Origin: Candidatus Niyogibacteria bacterium
GTDB lineage: Bacteria > Patescibacteriota > Minisyncoccia > HO2-45-28
Direction: 5' to 3'
Assembly (NCBI GenBank): GCA_016181935.1
Contig: JACOYI010000002.1
Coordinates: 63,961-127,960, forward strand
DNA: 64,000 nucleotides
Of this stretch, positions 36,425-63,840 are shown in pieces. How positions within the stretch are numbered: position 1 is the first letter of the stretch; every line of letters starts with the position of its first letter. The translations under genes and the position numbers were made by a program. The notes under the pieces were generated by a model. The model saw nothing but the letters and a program-made list of their open reading frames with translations. It did no database searches and was not told the DNA's origin.

Positions 36425-37072
36425 CTATTTCGGTAATCCGCAACAGCGAAATCCCACCGGTGGTATTGAAGAGCAAGCCCCGGGCGCCGACACCCACCCA
36501 CCGCCGATGCTTTCGCAGGTTTGGGTGCTGGGAACGGCATTCGTTTGTTGATAATTCCCAGGCGGGCTGGTTTCAGCGCATAGGCCCGGCGTTGGAAGGT
36601 CTGGGCTTCCGCAGTAGGAATTACACTCACTTTCTGTTGCAAAGCTTCTTTCCTCCCCCGTAGGGCACACCCATGTTGTTGTGTCTATTCCCAGCGGTTG
36701 CGGCGGGCGCAACGATACGAGTTCCGGATTAATGGTGTTGAGAATAAGGAACGAAAGAAACGCAAGGATCAATCCGCCGACCGCCGCGGTGATGCGCTTT
36801 TTTGCAGCCTCCACTTGCGGAGGAGAAATGGCTCCGGTCATCCATTGAAAGCCCGCAATAACAATGACAAATACGGAAAGCAGGGTCGCGGCCGCAAGCA
36901 TTAAACGGAAAAGCCACGGCAGAAATTCGATAAAATTATCAAATTGGGGAGCTGGGGGTTGGGCGATCTGGGTGATCGGTTGCGCCTGAACAATGGCGGT
37001 CAAGAGCGAAAAAATGCCCATGGCGGCAAGGATCGTAATAGCGATAAAACAGCGATTATTGAACCGCAACAT
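36425..37072 (-). CDS. Putative T4SS pilin-like protein (VirB2/TrbC-like topology) with a Cys-rich C-terminal extension
   Basis: Signal peptide (…AIVQAQP) followed by two hydrophobic helices, as in TrbC/VirB2 pilins. A ~90-aa tail holds 9 Cys (…CPTGEE…CNSYCGSPD…CAETS…CESIGG…CSSIPPVGFRCCGLPK). Confidence 0.4.
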   Translation of the reverse strand: MLRFNNRCFIAITILAAMGIFSLLTAIVQAQPITQIAQPPAPQFDNFIEFLPWLFRLMLAAATLLSVFVIVIAGFQWMTGAISPPQVEAAKKRITAAVGGLILAFLSFLILNTINPELVSLRPPQPLGIDTTTWVCPTGEERSFATESECNSYCGSPDLPTPGLCAETSPPGNYQQTNAVPSTQTCESIGGGWVSAPGACSSIPPVGFRCCGLPK

Positions 37073-58494: not shown

Positions 58495-59043
58495 TTATTC
58501 GTTCTCCGCGTCCCGTCCATCCCGTTTTCCGTGCGGAATACCGAGCAGGAATTTTGGATTTTCATCCAGATCCGTGAACGAATCCGTATGTTCGCGGAGT
58601 TTGGCGGATGCCGAACGGCCGAATGCCATCACTTCGACCTGAATGCCGAATTGGCCCTCTTTCAGATATTCCACGAGCGGCACGAAGTCGCCATCGCCCG
58701 TGACGAGTACGATCGTGTCCACGCGGGGCGCCAAACGCACCGCATCAATGGTAAGACCCACATCCCAATCCGCTTTTTTTACGCCGCCCGCAAAGATCTG
58801 GATGTCCTTGTTTTTGGGTTCGATCCCGATCTTTTCGAGCGCCTCAAAAAACGCCGCTTCCTCTCCGGAGGGCGTTTTGATCACATAACCGATCGCGCGC
58901 ACCAATTTCCGGTTCGCGACCGCCTGCTTCAGGATTTCTTTGAAATTGACGCGCTTTCCGTAGAGGTTGCGCGCCGAGTGGTACATGTTTTGAACGTCGA
59001 TCAAAACCGCAACTCGCTGTTCTTTGTGTCGGATGACGGGCAT
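58495..59043 (-). CDS. NYN-domain (LabA/PIN-like) protein
   Basis: VAVLIDVQNMYHS…VLVTGDGDFVPLV has the acidic residue pattern of NYN/LabA nucleases. It is inserted between rpsO and pnp. Confidence 0.7.
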   Translation of the reverse strand: MPVIRHKEQRVAVLIDVQNMYHSARNLYGKRVNFKEILKQAVANRKLVRAIGYVIKTPSGEEAAFFEALEKIGIEPKNKDIQIFAGGVKKADWDVGLTIDAVRLAPRVDTIVLVTGDGDFVPLVEYLKEGQFGIQVEVMAFGRSASAKLREHTDSFTDLDENPKFLLGIPHGKRDGRDAENE

Positions 59044-59044
59044 T

Positions 59045-59308
59045 TTATGATTTTAAACCGATTTTTTTGGCAATATCCGAATAGCGCTTCTCGTCTTCTT
59101 TTTTCAGATAGTTCAGGAGCGATTTTCGCTTGGCCACCATGCGCAAAAGCCCGCGGCGAGAGTGGGTGTCTTTCGGGTTTGTCTTCAAATGCTGGGTCAG
59201 GGACTTCATTTCCTCGGTCAGGAGCGCGATCTGAACCTCGGATGAGCCGGTATCGCGCTCGTCCAGCTTGAATTTTTCGATGACTTTTTGCTTGGTTTTA
59301 GTGCTTAA
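59045..59308 (-). CDS. rpsO: 30S ribosomal protein S15
   Basis: MLSTKTKQKVIEKFKLDERDTGSSEVQIALLTEEMKSLTQHLKTNPKDTHSRRGLL…, canonical uS15. Confidence 0.9.
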   Translation of the reverse strand, partial: LSTKTKQKVIEKFKLDERDTGSSEVQIALLTEEMKSLTQHLKTNPKDTHSRRGLLRMVAKRKSLLNYLKKEDEKRYSDIAKKIGLKS

Positions 59309-59410
59309 CATCGCTTCCAGCGTAGCACGGGGGCTTGATTTAAGCAAGGCTTTATGCTATCCTGTCGTGGGGTTCTTCTAATCATTCCTTTAACCATGAG
59401 AGGAAACATA

Positions 59411-59626
59411 ATGCCGCGCAACAAGAAGATGGAGAGAAAAAAAATAAGAGGGAAAATATCCTCCCTGAACCTAGAAATAGGAAATTTAAGGAGGATGGCT
59501 GCATATTGGGGGTCTGATTTTGCGGTGTATGCTCCGGAAAGGGCCATAAAATGTCGTGATGAACGAATTCAGCTTGAACATAAGCGAGAACAATTGAGCA
59601 TGAAGCTGAAATCTCTTCCTTCGTAG
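59411..59626 (+). CDS. Hypothetical small basic protein
   Basis: 71 aa (MPRNKKMERKKIRGK…) with RBS AGGAAAC and a following terminator. Weak evidence. Confidence 0.3.
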   Translation: MPRNKKMERKKIRGKISSLNLEIGNLRRMAAYWGSDFAVYAPERAIKCRDERIQLEHKREQLSMKLKSLPS

Positions 59627-59648
59627 CACGGCTGCAGGATTTGTTCAA

Positions 59649-59675
59649 CCCCGGCTTCGGCCGGGGATTTTTTTA
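59649..59675. terminator. Bidirectional terminator
   Basis: CCCCGGC-TTCG-GCCGGGG followed by ATTTTTTTA. It overlaps the stop of the Cys-rich gene on the opposite strand. Confidence 0.55.
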
Positions 59676-61430
59676 TCCGACCGATTCGAGATAACACTTT
59701 TCGCAATAGACAATACGCGGATCGGATGGCGGGTAAACGGTTTGGAACGAGCAGCCGCACTTCGGGCAGGTGCGGGTATAAAATTGCGTCCGGATCGAAC
59801 CGAATGCCTTCCGCATTTTTTCAATGAGAGTGATCGGGTTTTCCTGCGGCAACGGGAGCGAATGCATCCGATAAAAATCAAGCTCCGTTTTCGTGACGCG
59901 GAATTTTTTGTTATCCCGACCGAGAATGATCGTTCGCAGAATATCATCATGAATATCGCGTATATCGTCCGGAAGGGTATCGGCGCGGACGATTTCGCCG
60001 TCCGCTGATCCGTCGGTTTCCGGAATGATTTCCACGGGGTAGCCGAGTTTTCGCGCTTCTTCCACATTGTCATAGCCGATATACGATGTTGCGAAAGAAA
60101 TATTATATGGGAAGGGCGACAGATGCGGCGGATAGAATTCGCCGTATTCCCCGCGCTCGAGCATCGCGGTTTTAAGCGTGTCCACGAGCGGCCAATACTC
60201 ATCTTCCATATATTGTTTGTTGAAAATGCAGAATTTTTTCTTAGACAATGCGACACAGCCGAAACAGTCTTCACACGCATTGCAATCCCACGAGTATTCG
60301 AGATTTTGCCCGTTCTTATCGAAGTAGCAGAATTTGCAATTTGCCGAGTTGAGCGATGTTAAGCTTTCGTAGCACCGTTCAACATTGAGGCCGCCAAAGT
60401 TATGATAGGAGTCGCGGGCGTTGAATCCGCCCATGGAGTACGCGACATTTTGGGCGCCTTCCATGAAGGACGACTCGTAGCAATTTGTTGAATTGACCAG
60501 CCGGTCGCCGATACTGTCTTTGGTGTTTTCATTATGGTTCGGGCGGTGAATTGCGCGTTTTTTCAATTCCTCGAATTGCTTTTTGTAGCGCTCCACGACG
60601 TCGCGGCTTCCGAAATTGATTTCCTTGATGCGCGCCGCATACGCTTCTTTACTTAACGGTTCGTTCAAAAAATAGTGTTTTTTATGGCGGAGATTTACAG
60701 AACCGAAACAGGAGTCGCAGCTGCGGCAGTCGTAAAGGAAATAAGAATCTTGGCAGTCGCGCGACTGTTCGCACCAAAACGAGCGATACATATTCTTGCA
60801 ATCCAAAAGGCCGTAGCAGGAATCGCTCGAATATAATCCGCAGGAATTCCCGGAATTCGTTGAATAAATATAGCCCGCGCCGTTCCAGCAGTTTTCCGCT
60901 CCCACGGAATCGAAAATGAGATAGCAGTTTTTTACGCCGAGGACGACATTCGCATATTCCGTACCAACGCTCGCGGGATCGATGAACAAGTTGAAGCGCG
61001 GAACATCGAGCGTGAGTTTTTTGAACTGCTCGAAAAAGGGCGCGTTCATGTCTATGGCGCGGCCATAATCCATCGGGTTCCATTGGTCGCCGAACCACGC
61101 CTTGTGTTCGTAAATTTTGTAGGGCGTATTCGGCGGATACATCGCTACGATGGTTTTACCAGAAAATGCGGATTTGACTTTGAAAAGATTGTAAATGTTG
61201 GTGAACGCAAATTTTTGCCGGTGGCGTTCGTCCGGTGAAACGGTCGGCAAAGGCACGCGGATGTTCTTGTAAAATGCAATGTCTTCGGGACGGATATAGA
61301 AGGGCTCTCCCGAAATACGGCAGGTGCGCGTTTGCCCGCCTTTTTCGTCGAGTTCGAGCTTTGAGTAGTAGGCATCGAGCGCGGCGTCGAACCGCGGGGT
61401 TTTGGATTTCATATCGCCATCATGCCCCAT
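59673..61430 (-). CDS. Large cysteine-rich repeat protein with a C-terminal zinc ribbon (unknown function)
   Basis: 585 aa with about 40 Cys. Reiterated short units (NCYLIFDS…NCWNGAG…NSCGLYSSDSCYGLLDCKN…DCQDSYFLYDCRSCDSCFG…; later CKFCYFDKNG…DCNACEDCFGC). The C-terminus has TCPKCGC…CEKC. Confidence 0.5.
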   Translation of the reverse strand: MGHDGDMKSKTPRFDAALDAYYSKLELDEKGGQTRTCRISGEPFYIRPEDIAFYKNIRVPLPTVSPDERHRQKFAFTNIYNLFKVKSAFSGKTIVAMYPPNTPYKIYEHKAWFGDQWNPMDYGRAIDMNAPFFEQFKKLTLDVPRFNLFIDPASVGTEYANVVLGVKNCYLIFDSVGAENCWNGAGYIYSTNSGNSCGLYSSDSCYGLLDCKNMYRSFWCEQSRDCQDSYFLYDCRSCDSCFGSVNLRHKKHYFLNEPLSKEAYAARIKEINFGSRDVVERYKKQFEELKKRAIHRPNHNENTKDSIGDRLVNSTNCYESSFMEGAQNVAYSMGGFNARDSYHNFGGLNVERCYESLTSLNSANCKFCYFDKNGQNLEYSWDCNACEDCFGCVALSKKKFCIFNKQYMEDEYWPLVDTLKTAMLERGEYGEFYPPHLSPFPYNISFATSYIGYDNVEEARKLGYPVEIIPETDGSADGEIVRADTLPDDIRDIHDDILRTIILGRDNKKFRVTKTELDFYRMHSLPLPQENPITLIEKMRKAFGSIRTQFYTRTCPKCGCSFQTVYPPSDPRIVYCEKCYLESVG

Positions 61431-61456
61431 TTATGGATGTTTGATAAGATAAGATT

Positions 61457-62368
61457 GTGCGACGCATAGATATACAAGCCCTCTATAGAAATTACCTCGA
61501 ATACTTGGAGATCGAGCGGGGGCGGAGCTTGAAAACGCTCGATAATTACGGGCACTATATTTCGGCGTTTCTTGAATTTGCGAAGGCGAAGACGCCAGAC
61601 GATATCACCGAGGACGGCGTGCGGGAGTTTCGGATGCGGCTCAACCGCGCGAATCTCAAGCGCCGGACGCAAAACTACTATCTTATAGCACTCCGCGGAT
61701 TCCTGAAGTATCTGGCCAAGCGCGGGGTTCCGAGTTTGGCGCCCGAAAAGATCGAACTGGCCAAGGTGCCGGAGCGCGAATTCGACTTGATTAGTGACGA
61801 CGAATTGGGGCGTCTGCTCGCCTCCCCCAACGGGTCGGACGCGAAAAGCATGCGCGACCGCGCACTCTTTGAATTGTTGTTTTCGACGGGATTACGGGTT
61901 TCGGAGCTCTGTTCGCTCAATCGGGATTCGATCAATCTCTCGCGCGGCGAGTTCAGTGTGCGCGGAAAAGGCGAAAAAGTGCGCGTGGTATTTTTGTCGG
62001 ACAGCGCGCGCGATGCTCTTAAGGGGTGGCTCGATAAGCGGAAGGATATGAGCGAAGCATTGTTTACGAATTTCCGGCGCGGCGCAAAAGACGAACTGGA
62101 TGAAAAAGCGCGGCTTACCTCCCGCTCGGTGGAGCGCATCATCAAGTTTTATGCGGTAAAGGCGGGCATCTCGAAAAAGGTCACGCCGCACGTATTGCGG
62201 CATTGTTTTGCGACCGATCTTTTGCAAAACGGCGCGGATTTGCGTTCGGTGCAGATGCTCTTGGGCCATGCGAATGTGGCGACGACGCAAATTTATACGC
62301 ACATCACGAACCGGCAGTTAAAAGATATTCATCAAGCGTTCCATGGGAAAAAAAGAAGGGCGAATTGA
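61457..62368 (+). CDS. Tyrosine recombinase (XerC/XerD family)
   Basis: GTG start. N-terminal core-binding domain and catalytic R…HxxR…Y pattern (VLRHCFATDLL…LLGHANVATTQIYTH). It is divergent from the Cys-rich gene across about 26 bp. Confidence 0.85.
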   Translation: MRRIDIQALYRNYLEYLEIERGRSLKTLDNYGHYISAFLEFAKAKTPDDITEDGVREFRMRLNRANLKRRTQNYYLIALRGFLKYLAKRGVPSLAPEKIELAKVPEREFDLISDDELGRLLASPNGSDAKSMRDRALFELLFSTGLRVSELCSLNRDSINLSRGEFSVRGKGEKVRVVFLSDSARDALKGWLDKRKDMSEALFTNFRRGAKDELDEKARLTSRSVERIIKFYAVKAGISKKVTPHVLRHCFATDLLQNGADLRSVQMLLGHANVATTQIYTHITNRQLKDIHQAFHGKKRRAN

Positions 62369-62386
62369 ATTCGCCCCCCAAATGTA

Positions 62387-62677
62387 TTAAGCATATGCGC
62401 CTGATTTCATTTGCTCGATAATCTCCTCAACCGCTTCGATGTCTCCTCGTTCGATGCGCTCTCGGGGCGTATCGCCGCCCAATAGTTTGTTGGGCAAACT
62501 GATCCATCGTAACGCTTCTTCCCTTGAATATAGCTTGTTGAGTAGCCACAAGATCCGTTCCACATCAGACGACACGGCGTTCTTTCTCCGCGGAAATCCG
62601 CGCCTTTTCTTCCGTTGTCGGGAGCCAGATGAAGGGCATGGCGAATAGTGCGATGGCGACGATAATCTTTGCGACAA
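62387..62677 (-). pseudogene. Possible remnant of a DUF2384 (Xre/MbcA/ParS-type) antitoxin C-terminal domain
   Basis: The C-terminal 55 aa (…EALRWISLPNKLLGGDTPRERIERGDIEAVEEIIEQM) match the DUF2384 pattern. The N-terminal part is low-complexity and there is no HTH and no RES/ART toxin partner. It overlaps a 71-aa membrane ORF (62565..62780). Confidence 0.3.
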
Positions 62678-62780
62678 AAAATCCTACCTCTTCTCCCACG
62701 CCGACCGCGGCGAGTGCAAAAACGGCGGAGATTCCCGCGATCTCGAGCGAGCGCCTGACCTTGTCATTCCGGTTTTTCAT
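62565..62780 (-). CDS. Hypothetical small membrane protein
   Basis: 71 aa with a strong RBS (GGGAGAGAAAA ATG) and one or two TM helices. It conflicts with the DUF2384-like reading frame. Confidence 0.3.
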   Translation of the reverse strand: MKNRNDKVRRSLEIAGISAVFALAAVGVGEEVGFFVAKIIVAIALFAMPFIWLPTTEEKARISAEKERRVV

Positions 62781-63654: not shown

Positions 63655-63726
63655 GCTCTCGTGGTGAAATGGATATCACGGCTGCCTTCGAAGCAGTTAT
63701 TGGGGGTTCGAATCCCTCCGAGAGCA
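63655..63726 (+). tRNA. tRNA-Arg (anticodon TCG)
   Basis: Cloverleaf: acceptor GCTCTCG/CGAGAGC, D-arm GTGA…TCAC with a GG loop, anticodon stem GCTGC/GCAGT with loop CTTCGAA, T-arm GGGGG-TTCGAAT-CCCTC. Discriminator A; CCA is not encoded. Confidence 0.85.
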
Positions 63727-63840
63727 CAAAATTGCTATAGTAATTTTGTGCTCGAAGAGCGAGCCAACTGCTTGGCTCGCGCGAGGATTCGAAGGGTTGA
63801 GCGATGCGCGAGGCGCCGCGAAACTCCGGATTTTGCGTAG

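What the first reader, a model, noticed from the sequence alone, without database searches (positions are those of the whole stretch)
59673..61430. 585-aa cysteine-rich repeat protein of unknown family, divergent from the xerC-family gene
About 40 cysteines fall in reiterated short units (…NCY…, …SCG…, …DCK…, …CRSCDSCFG…, …CNACEDCFGC…) and a C-terminal CPxCG…CxxC zinc ribbon. There is no signal peptide. The repeats resemble a beta-solenoid built from Cys-containing rungs, or a multi-zinc-knuckle nucleic-acid-binding protein. The 26-bp divergent spacer from the recombinase gene suggests co-regulation.
Basis: seen in the sequence. Interest (0 to 1): 0.6.

Follow-up and report, generated by a model that had tools for sequence, protein, structure and literature searches.

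The report
Cysteine-cored solenoid protein of CPR bacteria
The gene is real and encodes a member of a very large, unnamed protein family found in the ultrasmall Patescibacteria (CPR): two rod-like 12-residue-per-turn beta-helices whose cores are lined with cysteines, flanked by zinc-finger domains; in other genomes the family forms tandem arrays interleaved with 'orphan' VirD4-type ATPases, which hints at an undescribed CPR machine.

Summary
The ORF (59673-61430, minus strand) is real, but it has 25 cysteines, not about 40. Its start is probably Met7 (579 aa, as NCBI annotates it in a Candidatus Niyogibacteria MAG).

No curated family or solved structure matches the core. The protein belongs to a CPR-wide family (4,975 clusters at 50% identity; at least 572 hits in species-representative genomes).

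Architecture:
- a basic finger pair (zf_Tbcl plus a zf_Tbcl_2-like finger, decayed here);
- solenoid A;
- a helical hairpin;
- solenoid B (a duplicate of A, hhalign E 7e-34);
- an acidic linker;
- a second finger pair (duplicate of the first, E 1e-28), ending in an invariant Cys4 zf_Tbcl_2.

The solenoids are dodecapeptide repeats. More than 93% of the family's module cysteines fall in one period-3 register, and they are swapped one at a time for S/V/I/L. That marks them as core residues, not obligate metal ligands or disulfide pairs. The only geometric precedent I found is the 12-residue beetle antifreeze beta-helix.

The multi-zinc-knuckle idea and xerC co-regulation are not: XerC is present in 4 of 81 loci and never adjacent.

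Elsewhere the family sits in co-directional arrays of 2-11 ancient paralogs, interleaved with VirD4/TrwB-like ATPases that carry the same finger (25 of 81 loci). Function is inferred: a client or adaptor of those ATPases.

The parts
59673..61430 (-). Whole ORF including the stop codon. It is 585 codons from ATG 61430. The likely true start is Met7 (ATG 61412), giving 579 aa, identical to NCBI MBI2038832.1 (hypothetical protein, Ca. Niyogibacteria).
61104..61337 (-). N-terminal basic finger pair (residues 32-109, net charge about +8): a decayed zf_Tbcl (only Cys37 of four ligands is kept; the FYIRPEDIAFYKNIRVPLP motif is kept) plus a decayed zf_Tbcl_2-like unit.
   Evidence: hhalign against the C-terminal pair: probability 99.8%, E 1.3e-28. 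Ligand columns are CCCC in 103 of 147 relatives but CSSE here. PF13451 is precomputed in relatives. Charge.
60966..61103 (-). Conserved alpha/beta linker and probable N-cap of solenoid A (residues 110-155; W116, FFEQF, P143/144).
60657..60965 (-). Solenoid module A (residues 156-258): about 8-9 dodecapeptide coils with consensus [ND]-C-x-[YF]-x6-S-[KE]. It ends in the ring C235-x2-C238-x2-C241-x2-S244 followed by NLRHKK.
60531..60656 (-). Basic helical hairpin between the two solenoids (residues 259-300).
   Evidence: DSSP helices at 260-269 and 275-289; charge +5
60213..60530 (-). Solenoid module B (residues 301-406), an internal duplicate of A. It ends in the ring C383-x2-C386-x2-C389-x2-C392 followed by LSKKKFC.
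   Evidence: blastp E 8e-13; hhalign probability 99.9%, E 7e-34; pLDDT 94-98; lag-12 autocorrelation
60096..60212 (-). Long helix plus the near-invariant GEYGEF(F/Y)P...PYN motif (residues 407-445); probable C-cap of solenoid B.
59937..60095 (-). Poorly conserved, strongly acidic linker (residues 446-498, net charge -10).
59676..59936 (-). C-terminal basic finger pair (residues 499-585, net charge +7): a second, Cys-less zf_Tbcl copy (FRVTKTELDFYRMHSLPLP, 509-528) followed by an intact Cys4 zf_Tbcl_2 (C555, C558, C576, C579; nt 59688-59786).
   Evidence: PF23477 E 0.02 here, above the cut-off in relatives. Invariant Cys. LIM-like profile hit E 1e-3. BFVD 'zinc-ribbon domain protein' probability 0.99. 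Matches the finger of neighbouring ATPases, probability 95%.
59649..59676 (.). GC-rich hairpin (CCCCGGC-TTCG-GCCGGGG) with a T-run on the + strand that overlaps the stop codon. It is shared with a convergent small ORF, so the gene is not co-transcribed with rpsO-pnp.
61413..61456 (.). Divergent spacer to the xerC-like gene: 44 bp from Met7, or 26 bp from the first ATG. No promoter-like match was found here, and the junction is not conserved in relatives.

Best explanation
SHOWN.
- The gene encodes a cytoplasmic protein of about 579 aa from a Candidatus Niyogibacteria (Patescibacteria/CPR) genome.
- It belongs to a very large, unnamed family seen so far only in CPR lineages.
- The protein is internally two-fold. 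A basic zinc-finger pair (zf_Tbcl plus zf_Tbcl_2 type) sits at each end. Between them are two duplicated beta-solenoid modules built from 12-residue coils.
- Positions 2, 5, 8 and 11 of each coil, which are the inward-pointing positions in the known 12-residue beta-helix of beetle antifreeze protein, are preferentially cysteine.
- These cysteines behave as interchangeable small core residues, not as obligate metal ligands or disulfide partners.
- In the window protein's clade three of the four ancestral fingers have lost their cysteines. Only the C-terminal Cys4 finger should still bind zinc.

INFERRED (mechanism).
- The two solenoids form rigid rod-like spacers that present two basic finger domains and an acidic linker.
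- The family works together with the 'orphan' VirD4/TrwB-type (T4CP-like) ATPases of Patescibacteria, as clients or adaptors that dock through the shared zf_Tbcl_2-type finger and/or the basic C-terminus.
- The anciently diverged paralogs in one array supply non-redundant variants, either distinct specificities or subunits of a hetero-oligomer.
- The window copy is a solitary representative of one orthologous subfamily. It has its own promoter region and terminator and is not functionally tied to xerC.

Confidence in the structural description is about 0.85. Confidence in the ATPase-partner mechanism is about 0.3.
For: - Family size and range: 1,344 and 5,449 hits in two word-indexed searches. 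The exhaustive search gives 4,975 clusters at 50% identity with E<=1e-3. At least 572 hits in species-representative genomes, nearly all labelled with CPR lineages. Every named member is 'hypothetical' or 'zinc-ribbon domain containing protein'.
- Internal duplications: module A against B, E 7e-34; finger pairs, E 1.3e-28.
- Twelve-residue period and period-3 cysteine register.
- Core-like substitutions, piecemeal loss of ring cysteines, and no co-occurrence of C2-C8 partners, mean phi -0.13.
- AF2 model with pLDDT 93.1 and pTM 0.90, showing bridges every third residue.
- TmAFP geometry: 12-residue coil with positions 2/5/8/11 pointing in (PMC8038014).
- Invariant C-terminal Cys4.
- Cytoplasmic location.
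- Arrays: 65 of 88 loci hold two or more copies and up to 11, nearly all co-directional. For 205 of 231 members the closest relative is in another genome.
- T4CP-like genes occur in 25 of 81 loci, against about 3-9% expected (P<=5e-8). Thirty-three of 41 lie 1-2 genes away and 39 of 41 are on the same strand. The layouts look like operons.
- The ATPases carry PF23477 at E 4.5e-15 and 7.5e-14, and that finger matches the family's finger at 95% probability.
- Orthologues of the window protein lie next to T4CPzf in L012, L015, L006 and L013.
- The literature reports 5,713 VirD4-like T4CPs in 2,918 Patescibacteria genomes, only 148 near virB4, with exaptation for other functions not ruled out (PMC12102498).
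- Both finger pairs are basic, +8 and +7.
Against: - The 64-kb window contains no T4CP-like, TrmB or CutA1 gene and no second family copy, so the proposed partnership is not visible for this particular gene.
- Fifty-six of 81 related loci show no T4CP within the DNA held.
- Other recurrent contexts exist: glycosyltransferase clusters, and HisRS-MreB-MreC-PBP2.
- Gene adjacency and a shared small finger do not prove physical interaction.
- The loci analysed are the 80 best of at least 572 hits, not a random sample. The neighbour families were defined by single-linkage BLAST clustering.
- I could not inspect model coordinates, so residues per turn and handedness come from sequence periodicity and DSSP only. 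Foldseek did not list 1EZG among its top hits.
- Module A is modelled less confidently, with pLDDT 73-93.
Confidence: 0.45

Rival explanations
1. Nucleic-acid-binding bridge, independent of the ATPases. The two basic treble-clef finger domains each bind DNA or RNA, and the solenoids act as a spacer. The paralogs would then differ in target preference, in line with the divergent TrmB-type regulators next to many copies.
For: - The finger pairs are basic (+8 and +7; family medians +5 and +7) while the rest of the protein is acidic.
- The ancestral fingers end in Arg-rich CPxCRxxRR helices.
- BFVD and PDB weak hits are to zinc-ribbon, LIM, HNH and C2H2 finger proteins.
- TrmB HTH genes are adjacent in 20 of 27 cases.
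- The window gene sits among RNA-metabolism genes: rpsO, an NYN-domain gene and pnp.
Against: - Whole-protein net charge is negative (-6).
- In the window clade three of the four fingers have lost their zinc ligands and part of the Arg-rich helices.
- No known nucleic-acid-binding family is matched at threshold.
- The rpsO-pnp neighbourhood is not conserved in relatives; rpsO is seen in 1 locus.
Confidence: 0.2
2. Metal-binding protein: zinc or iron-sulfur storage or delivery, or a multi-zinc-knuckle array. The repeat cysteines, especially the CxxCxxCxxC ring that closes each module, would coordinate metal ions inside the solenoid. The neighbouring CutA1 genes would reflect a role in metal handling.
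For: - Cysteine is 9% of the modules.
- C226, C235, C238 and C241 are 91-98% conserved.
- Each module ends with one full 12-residue turn whose four core positions are Cys.
- CutA1 is immediately adjacent and co-directional in 9-10 of 10 loci.
Against: - Core cysteines are replaced by L/I/V/M/S/G one at a time. Ring B is CCCC in only 36 of 147 sequences, with CSLC, CCLC and LCCC common.
- Cys columns show no concerted loss.
- The window protein itself has Ser at ring-A position 244.
- No Fe-S or metallothionein family is matched.
- The function of CutA1 is itself unclear (established knowledge).
Confidence: 0.12
3. Left-handed beta-helix (hexapeptide-repeat) acyl- or acetyltransferase-like enzyme acting on sugars or cell-wall precursors.
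For: - All weak Foldseek PDB hits are LbH enzymes: LpxD, GlmU, LpxA and gamma-carbonic anhydrase (best E 0.012).
- Some arrays lie inside glycosyltransferase clusters.
- One member is fused to a GNAT acetyltransferase.
Against: - TM-scores are 0.06-0.19, rmsd 13-22 A, and probability is at most 0.28.
- No Hexapep Pfam hit appears in any of 50 members, even at E<=1.
- The repeat period is 12, not 18 (lag 18 gives 0.11-0.22 against 0.35 at lag 12).
- Core positions recur every 3 residues, unlike the hexapeptide pattern.
- No conserved His or Asp catalytic candidates were identified.
Confidence: 0.04
4. Contingency or antigenic-variation gene arrays, or rapidly diversifying host-interaction effectors. 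The tandem copies would be recent, fast-evolving duplicates that provide surface variability.
For: - Arrays of 2-11 copies parallel the 2-11-gene VirB2 pilin arrays reported in Patescibacteria (PMC12102498).
- CPR bacteria are episymbionts.
Against: - For 205 of 231 members the closest relative is in another genome, and intra-array identity has a median of 42%. The duplications are therefore ancient and the subfamilies are conserved.
- There is no signal peptide or TM segment.
- Length and motifs are strongly conserved across the whole radiation.
Confidence: 0.04

Closest known systems
Beetle hyperactive antifreeze protein TmAFP / DhbAFP (PDB 1EZG): 12-residue right-handed beta-helix, TCTxSxNCxxAx
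   Same: - Both have a 12-residue coil.
- In both, the inward-pointing positions recur every third residue (2, 5, 8, 11), and Cys is the dominant core residue at position 2 and frequent at position 8 (PMC8038014).
   Different: - There is no sequence homology, and no TxT ice-binding face.
- This protein is cytoplasmic and has no signal peptide.
- There is no evidence for the C2-C8 disulfide ladder (phi -0.13).
- It has two modules of about 100 residues embedded in a 580-aa multidomain protein.
- Foldseek did not return 1EZG among the listed hits.
- The resemblance is geometric and inferred from sequence; it has not been superposed.
Pfam PF23477 (zf_Tbcl_2) and PF13451 (zf_Tbcl), 'probable treble clef zinc fingers' / 'zinc-ribbon domain containing protein'
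   Same: - The C-terminal CxKCG...VYCExC unit matches PF23477: 31 of 50 members hit it and some exceed the cut-off.
- The N-terminal unit of many relatives matches PF13451.
- BFVD fold hits are to 'putative zinc-ribbon domain protein', probability 0.99.
   Different: - These Pfam entries cover only about 40-residue fingers of unknown function, not the roughly 450-residue remainder.
- In the window protein PF23477 scores 15 bits against a cut-off of 27.
- Both zf_Tbcl copies have lost their Cys ligands.
Type IV coupling proteins (VirD4/TrwB/TraG) and their clients; the 'orphan' T4CPs of Patescibacteria (PMC12102498)
   Same: - The family is interleaved with T4CP-like ATPase genes in 25 of 81 loci and shares a finger domain with one ATPase subtype.
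- The C-terminus is basic, as are many T4SS substrate signals (established knowledge; charge).
   Different: - No virB4 or other T4SS channel genes were noticed in these loci.
- Two ATPase subtypes lack a membrane anchor.
- The family is uniform in architecture, unlike typical effector repertoires.
- No translocation has been shown, and the window itself has no T4CP.
Left-handed beta-helix hexapeptide-repeat enzymes (LpxA, LpxD, GlmU, gamma-carbonic anhydrase)
   Same: Both are beta-solenoids with short strands. These enzymes are the only PDB proteins that Foldseek retrieves, and only weakly.
   Different: - The period is 12, not 18.
- There is no Hexapep signature.
- TM-scores are at most 0.19.
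- No catalytic residues were identified.

Membership tests
Pfam PF23477 zf_Tbcl_2 (C-terminal finger) | hmmscan score at or above the gathering cut-off (27 bits) | tested here: inconclusive
   The window protein scores 15 bits, E 0.02. Relatives P0009 (27.1) and P0079 (29) pass, and 31 of 50 members hit the family.
Pfam PF23477 zf_Tbcl_2 (C-terminal finger) | Four zinc-ligand cysteines, CxxC...CxxC | tested here: met
   C555, C558, C576 and C579 are present, and CCCC is found in 146 of 147 relatives.
Pfam PF13451 zf_Tbcl (N-terminal and second C-terminal unit) | Two CxxC knuckles around the F-x-I-x3-[DE]-x2-FY-x-K...P-x-P motif | tested here: not met
   The motif is kept, but the ligands read C-S-S-E at positions 37/40/65/68, and the second copy has none. 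The window protein has no PF13451 hit. Homology to intact copies is shown by hhalign, E 1.3e-28, so these are decayed descendants, not functional members.
TmAFP-type 12-residue beta-helix | 12-residue coil with core positions 2/5/8/11 | tested here: met
   Autocorrelation peaks at lag 12. All multiples of 3 are positive and other lags negative. Cys register is 97.5% and 93%. DSSP bridges occur every 3 residues. Coordinates were not inspected.
TmAFP-type 12-residue beta-helix | Intra-coil C2-C8 disulfide ladder | tested here: not met
   Cys columns 6 residues apart do not co-occur (mean phi -0.13), and the protein is cytoplasmic.
TmAFP-type 12-residue beta-helix | TxT ice-binding face and a secretion signal | tested here: not met
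   The consensus coil is [ND]-C-x-[YF]-x6-S-[KE] with no TCT, and there is no signal peptide.
Hexapeptide-repeat LbH transferases | [LIV]-G-x4 hexapeptide signature (Pfam Hexapep) and 18-residue triangular coils | tested here: not met
   None of 50 members hits Hexapep at E<=1. The period is 12. Foldseek TM-scores are at most 0.19.
Pentapeptide-repeat proteins | Period-5 repeat A(D/N)LXX | tested here: not met
   Autocorrelation at lags 5 and 10 is negative.
Fe-S / radical-SAM partner or metallothionein-like Cys protein | An invariant, concerted set of ligand cysteines and a match to a known cluster-binding family | tested here: not met
   Cysteines are replaced piecemeal by hydrophobic residues. 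There are no family hits. Metal content cannot be tested here.
T4CP (VirD4-type) client or adaptor | Genomic linkage to a T4CP gene | tested here: inconclusive
   Met for the family: 25 of 81 loci, P<=5e-8. Not met for the window copy: no T4CP in 64 kb.
T4CP (VirD4-type) client or adaptor | Physical interaction with, or translocation by, the ATPase | not testable with these tools
   Only a shared finger type is shown (hhalign probability 95%).
   XerC is present in 4 of 81 loci, at gene distances 2, 5, 6 and 6. L011 has an intervening ORF.

The most novel reading that the evidence does not exclude
The cysteine-cored solenoid family and the 'orphan' VirD4/TrwB-like ATPases of Patescibacteria together form a previously undescribed, radiation-wide, multi-gene machine. 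Its parts would be three ATPase subtypes (membrane-anchored, soluble and zinc-finger-bearing), plus CutA1 or TrmB genes, plus arrays of 2-11 anciently diverged solenoid paralogs. It would serve translocation or assembly. The solenoid proteins would be its cargo or its modular rod-like subunits, built on a 12-residue beta-helix fold so far known only from insect antifreeze proteins.
Probability: 0.3. Interest if true: 0.8.

Novelty: new variant of a known kind. Interest (0 to 1): 0.6.

Why it matters
- Patescibacteria make up a large share of bacterial diversity and have genomes of about 1 Mb. Some still devote up to about 19 kb (11 genes) to this single uncharacterized family, which no database names and no paper in the searchable library mentions.
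- The work gives the family a concrete anatomy and a testable partner. The roughly two-per-genome VirD4-like ATPases have no known role and lie away from the T4SS genes, as the literature explicitly notes.
- If the link holds, it explains what those ATPases act on and exposes a CPR-specific machine.
- Structurally, it would be a bacterial, cytoplasmic, disulfide-free example of the very narrow 12-residue beta-helix, with cysteine used as a packing residue.

Tried and rejected
- Pfam, NCBIfam, PADLOC and PHROGs on the window protein gave nothing except a sub-threshold PF23477 hit.
- PDB sequence search with the single sequence and with the profile returned only LIM-like hits to the last finger.
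- Foldseek against the PDB with both models gave no hit with E<0.01. Against BFVD it found only zinc-ribbon proteins.
- An Rfam scan of 58900-62500 found nothing near threshold.
- The promoter scan gave no more matches than shuffled sequence, and none in the spacer.
- tblastn of the protein against the window found no second copy.
- The viral contig scan gave one partial hit in 2.9 million contigs, so the family is not phage-borne, although one GNAT-fused member weakly hits phrog_15341.
- Rejected readings: a hexapeptide LbH enzyme, a pentapeptide repeat, a TmAFP-style disulfide ladder, a concerted Cys4 metal ring, antigenic-variation arrays and xerC co-regulation. The reasons are in the rival explanations and the membership table.
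- A literature search for the Pfam names and accessions returned no paper.
Full report

An uninterrupted ORF occupies 59673..61430 on the minus strand, 585 codons from the first ATG.

The cysteine count is 25, not about 40. That is still 4.3% against 0.76% in the other 51 sizeable ORFs of the window (P = 9e-12). Nineteen of the 25 lie in 209 central residues.

There is no hydrophobic segment. The maximal 19-residue hydropathy is 1.08, and only 1 of 265 full-length relatives has one. The protein is therefore cytoplasmic.

Homologs start M-x-SKTPxFD, which corresponds to Met7. The exact Met7 product (579 aa) is NCBI MBI2038832.1, 'hypothetical protein HYT22_00910 [Candidatus Niyogibacteria bacterium]'. 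The 585-aa version is not on record. The divergent spacer to the xerC-like gene is therefore more likely 44 bp than 26 bp.

**2. Family**

No curated library names the protein. Pfam gives only a sub-threshold PF23477 hit on the last 33 residues, and NCBIfam, PADLOC and PHROGs give nothing. PDB sequences give nothing beyond LIM-like similarity of the last finger.

Yet the family is very large:
- 1,344 and 5,449 significant hits in two word-indexed searches;
- 4,975 clusters at 50% identity in the exhaustive HMM search, 2,105 of them below 1e-30;
- at least 572 hits in one-genome-per-species contigs.

Every informative label is a CPR/Patescibacteria lineage: Niyogi-, Giovannoni-, Jorgensen-, Sungi-, Kaiser-, Nomura-, Lipton-, Staskawicz-, Moran-, Uhr- and Kerfeldbacteria, plus Peregrini-/Peribacteria and Gracilibacteria. 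A few MAG contigs are labelled Nitrospirota or Gammaproteobacteria and are probably mis-binned. Names are 'hypothetical protein' or, for one clade, 'zinc-ribbon domain containing protein'. Only one partial hit exists in 2.9 million viral contigs.

**3. Anatomy**

Two internal duplications organise the protein.
- Residues 143-262 align with 299-412 (blastp E 8e-13; profile-profile probability 99.9%, E 7e-34).
- Residues 32-109 align with 499-577 (probability 99.8%, E 1.3e-28).

The 147-sequence consensus shows the ancestral state:
- an N-terminal zf_Tbcl (CxxC...FYxKxxVPxPTLCPxCRxxRR) followed by a zf_Tbcl_2-like unit;
- at the C-terminus, a second full zf_Tbcl followed by zf_Tbcl_2 (CxKCG...VYCExC).

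The ligand columns are CCCC in 103 of 147 sequences for the first finger and in 146 of 147 for the last. In the window protein's clade the first finger reads C-S-S-E and the second zf_Tbcl has no cysteine. Only the last finger (C555, C558, C576, C579) should still bind zinc.

Both finger pairs are basic (+8 and +7). The solenoids are mildly acidic, and the poorly conserved linker 446-498 is strongly acidic (-10).

**4. The cysteine repeats are a solenoid core, not zinc knuckles**

Within each module every column where cysteine is frequent has the same residue number modulo 3. Across 147 sequences, 1,665 of 1,707 (module A) and 1,254 of 1,344 (module B) cysteines share one register. The window protein has 9 of 10 and 9 of 9 in register.

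Column-profile autocorrelation is positive at every multiple of 3 and negative elsewhere. It peaks at lag 12 (0.35 in both modules), and the terminal domains give about 0. The unit is thus a dodecapeptide, roughly [ND]-C-x-[YF]-x6-S-[KE], with 8-9 copies per module.

At these columns cysteine alternates with S, V, I, L, A and G, for example C18/S11/L11/I7/V3 at position 181. The CxxCxxCxxC turn that closes each module is CCCC in 91 of 147 (A) and only 36 of 147 (B), and it is eroded one position at a time by L/I/M/S. Columns six residues apart, which would be the partners of an intra-coil disulfide, do not co-occur (mean phi -0.13). This is the behaviour of buried packing positions, not of obligate metal ligands or disulfide pairs.

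AlphaFold2 with the 147-sequence alignment gives pLDDT 93.1 and pTM 0.90 (module B 94-98, module A 73-93), with beta-bridges every third residue over long stretches. With the earlier 50-sequence alignment the modules were at pLDDT 58-75.

Foldseek finds no significant PDB match for either model. The best hits (E 0.012-0.3) are all left-handed beta-helix enzymes, but with TM 0.06-0.19 and rmsd 13-22 A. I read this as 'solenoid-like local backbone, different coil'.

The known solenoid with this geometry is the beetle antifreeze protein TmAFP (1EZG). [quoted passage not shown] Here the resemblance is in period and core register only. There is no sequence homology, no TxT face, no signal peptide and no evidence of the disulfide ladder. 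I could not inspect coordinates, so handedness and residues per turn remain inferred.

**5. Genomic context**

In the window the gene is flanked by a divergent xerC-like tyrosine recombinase (PF00589, E 3e-46). Downstream lie a small convergent ORF and then rpsO, an NYN-domain gene and pnp. A GC hairpin plus T-run at 59649-59676 overlaps the stop codon. The gene therefore looks monocistronic.

The xerC adjacency is not conserved. XerC occurs in 4 of 81 related loci at gene distances 2-6. In the nearest relative (L011; 84% and 88% identity for the two proteins) a 216-aa ORF lies between them.

What is conserved is tandem paralogy. Of 88 related loci, 65 hold two or more family genes and some hold up to 11 within about 20 kb, almost always co-directional. 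Some counts include split or truncated genes. Intra-array identity has a median of 42%. For 205 of 231 members the closest relative is in another genome. The arrays are thus sets of ancient, conserved subfamilies rather than recent amplifications.

The commonest non-family neighbours are as follows.
- T4CP-like ATPases (TrwB_AAD_bind, TraG-D_C, DUF87): 41 genes in 25 of 81 loci, 33 at gene distance 1-2 and 39 on the same strand.
- TrmB-type HTH genes: 16 loci, adjacent but mostly divergent.
- CutA1: 10 loci, 9 immediately adjacent and all co-directional.

Typical orders are T4CPtm> (u189>) T4CP/T4CPzf> FAM xn> CutA> T4CP> FAM xn in Paceibacteria-type loci, and <TrmB FAM xn <TrmB FAM xn T4CP> in Peregrini-/Gracilibacteria-type loci.

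The ATPases come in three subtypes:
- membrane-anchored;
- soluble;
- soluble and zinc-finger-bearing, carrying PF23477 at E 4.5e-15 and 7.5e-14.

The finger of the third subtype matches the family's C-terminal finger (hhalign probability 95%, E 2.6e-8).

By chance only about 3-9% of such loci should contain a T4CP gene (P<=5e-8). That expectation uses the roughly two T4CPs per genome reported in PMC12102498. The same paper notes that only 148 of 5,713 Patescibacteria T4CPs lie near virB4 and that exaptation for another function cannot be excluded.

Orthologues of the window protein are next to T4CPzf in L012, L015, L006 and L013. The 64-kb window itself contains no T4CP, TrmB, CutA1 or second family gene.

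**6. Most likely mechanism**

Shown: the protein is a cytoplasmic, internally duplicated protein with two 12-residue-repeat solenoids, a cysteine-rich core and terminal treble-clef finger pairs, of which one is intact here.

Inferred:
- The solenoids act as rigid spacers presenting two basic finger domains.
- The family acts with the orphan VirD4-like ATPases as clients or adaptors, docking through the shared finger type and/or the basic C-terminus.
- Conserved paralogs provide non-redundant variants.

I put about 0.85 on the structural description and about 0.3 on the ATPase partnership.

Rivals:
- an ATPase-independent nucleic-acid bridge (0.2);
- a metal-binding protein (0.12);
- an LbH-type transferase (0.04);
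- variation arrays (0.04).

The remainder of the probability is 'something else'.

**7. Novelty and verdict**

The gene is annotated only as hypothetical. The core has no family model, no structural relative and no literature; a search for the Pfam names and accessions returned no paper. The component ideas, beta-solenoids and zinc ribbons, are known, so I classify it as a new variant of a known kind.

The wider finding is a CPR-wide, array-forming family linked to orphan T4CP ATPases. That finding is what makes this worth following up.

Noticed in passing
window 59411-59626 (+), hairpin 59649-59676: A small convergent ORF of 71 aa (MPRNKKMERKKIRGKISSLNLEIGNLRR...), preceded by GAGAGGAAAC. It ends just before a strong GC hairpin plus T-run that overlaps the stop codon of the family gene. 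It has no Pfam hit. It may be a real small basic protein gene, or the region may belong to the rpsO leader.
   Followed up: partly
window 58495-59043 (-): An NYN-domain (PF01936, E 7e-33) gene is wedged between rpsO and pnp. This inserts a predicted RNase-like protein into the otherwise classical rpsO-pnp pair.
   Followed up: no
window 62387-62677 (-): A 96-aa ORF just downstream of xerC has an Xre/MbcA/ParS-type antitoxin C-terminal domain (PF09722, E 4e-6). No partner toxin was looked for. The overlapping ORF 62565-62780 is hydrophobic.
   Followed up: no
L006, L009, L012, L013, L015, L020, L028, L059, L069, L078 (coordinates): Soluble VirD4/TrwB-like ATPases of Patescibacteria carry an internal zf_Tbcl_2 finger (CxxCGKxTxVPFKPDxxRPVYCxxC) at about residue 455-495, followed by a long low-complexity tail. 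Their ATPase domain starts at about residue 27, with no membrane anchor. Separate genes of about 450 aa with N-terminal TM segments match the N-terminal part of the same phage family (phrog_5156), as if a full-length T4CP had been split.
   Followed up: partly
P0163 (731 aa): One family member has an N-terminal GNAT acetyltransferase fusion (PF00583, E 3e-8). Its solenoid module A weakly matches phage family phrog_15341 (E 6e-7).
   Followed up: partly
L009, L013, L023, L024, L026, L036, L049, L059, L061, L064: CutA1 (PF03091) genes lie directly next to family genes and on the same strand in every locus where they occur. The reason is unknown.
   Followed up: partly
L004, L005, L007, L008, L014: In Giovannonibacteria-type genomes the three-gene family array is embedded in a large cluster of glycosyltransferase, PMT_2 and methyltransferase genes. 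In L001 and L002 it precedes HisRS-MreB-MreC-PBP2. The context differs by lineage.
   Followed up: no
L011 2037-2687 (+): The closest relative of this locus has an extra 216-aa ORF with no Pfam hit between xerC and the family gene. It is absent from the window.
   Followed up: partly
window 63655-63727 (+): tRNA-Arg (TCG) is the only tRNA in the 64-kb window.
   Followed up: no
window 36425-37072 (-): This is the second most cysteine-rich ORF of the window: 215 aa with 9 Cys (4.2%). It was not examined.
   Followed up: no
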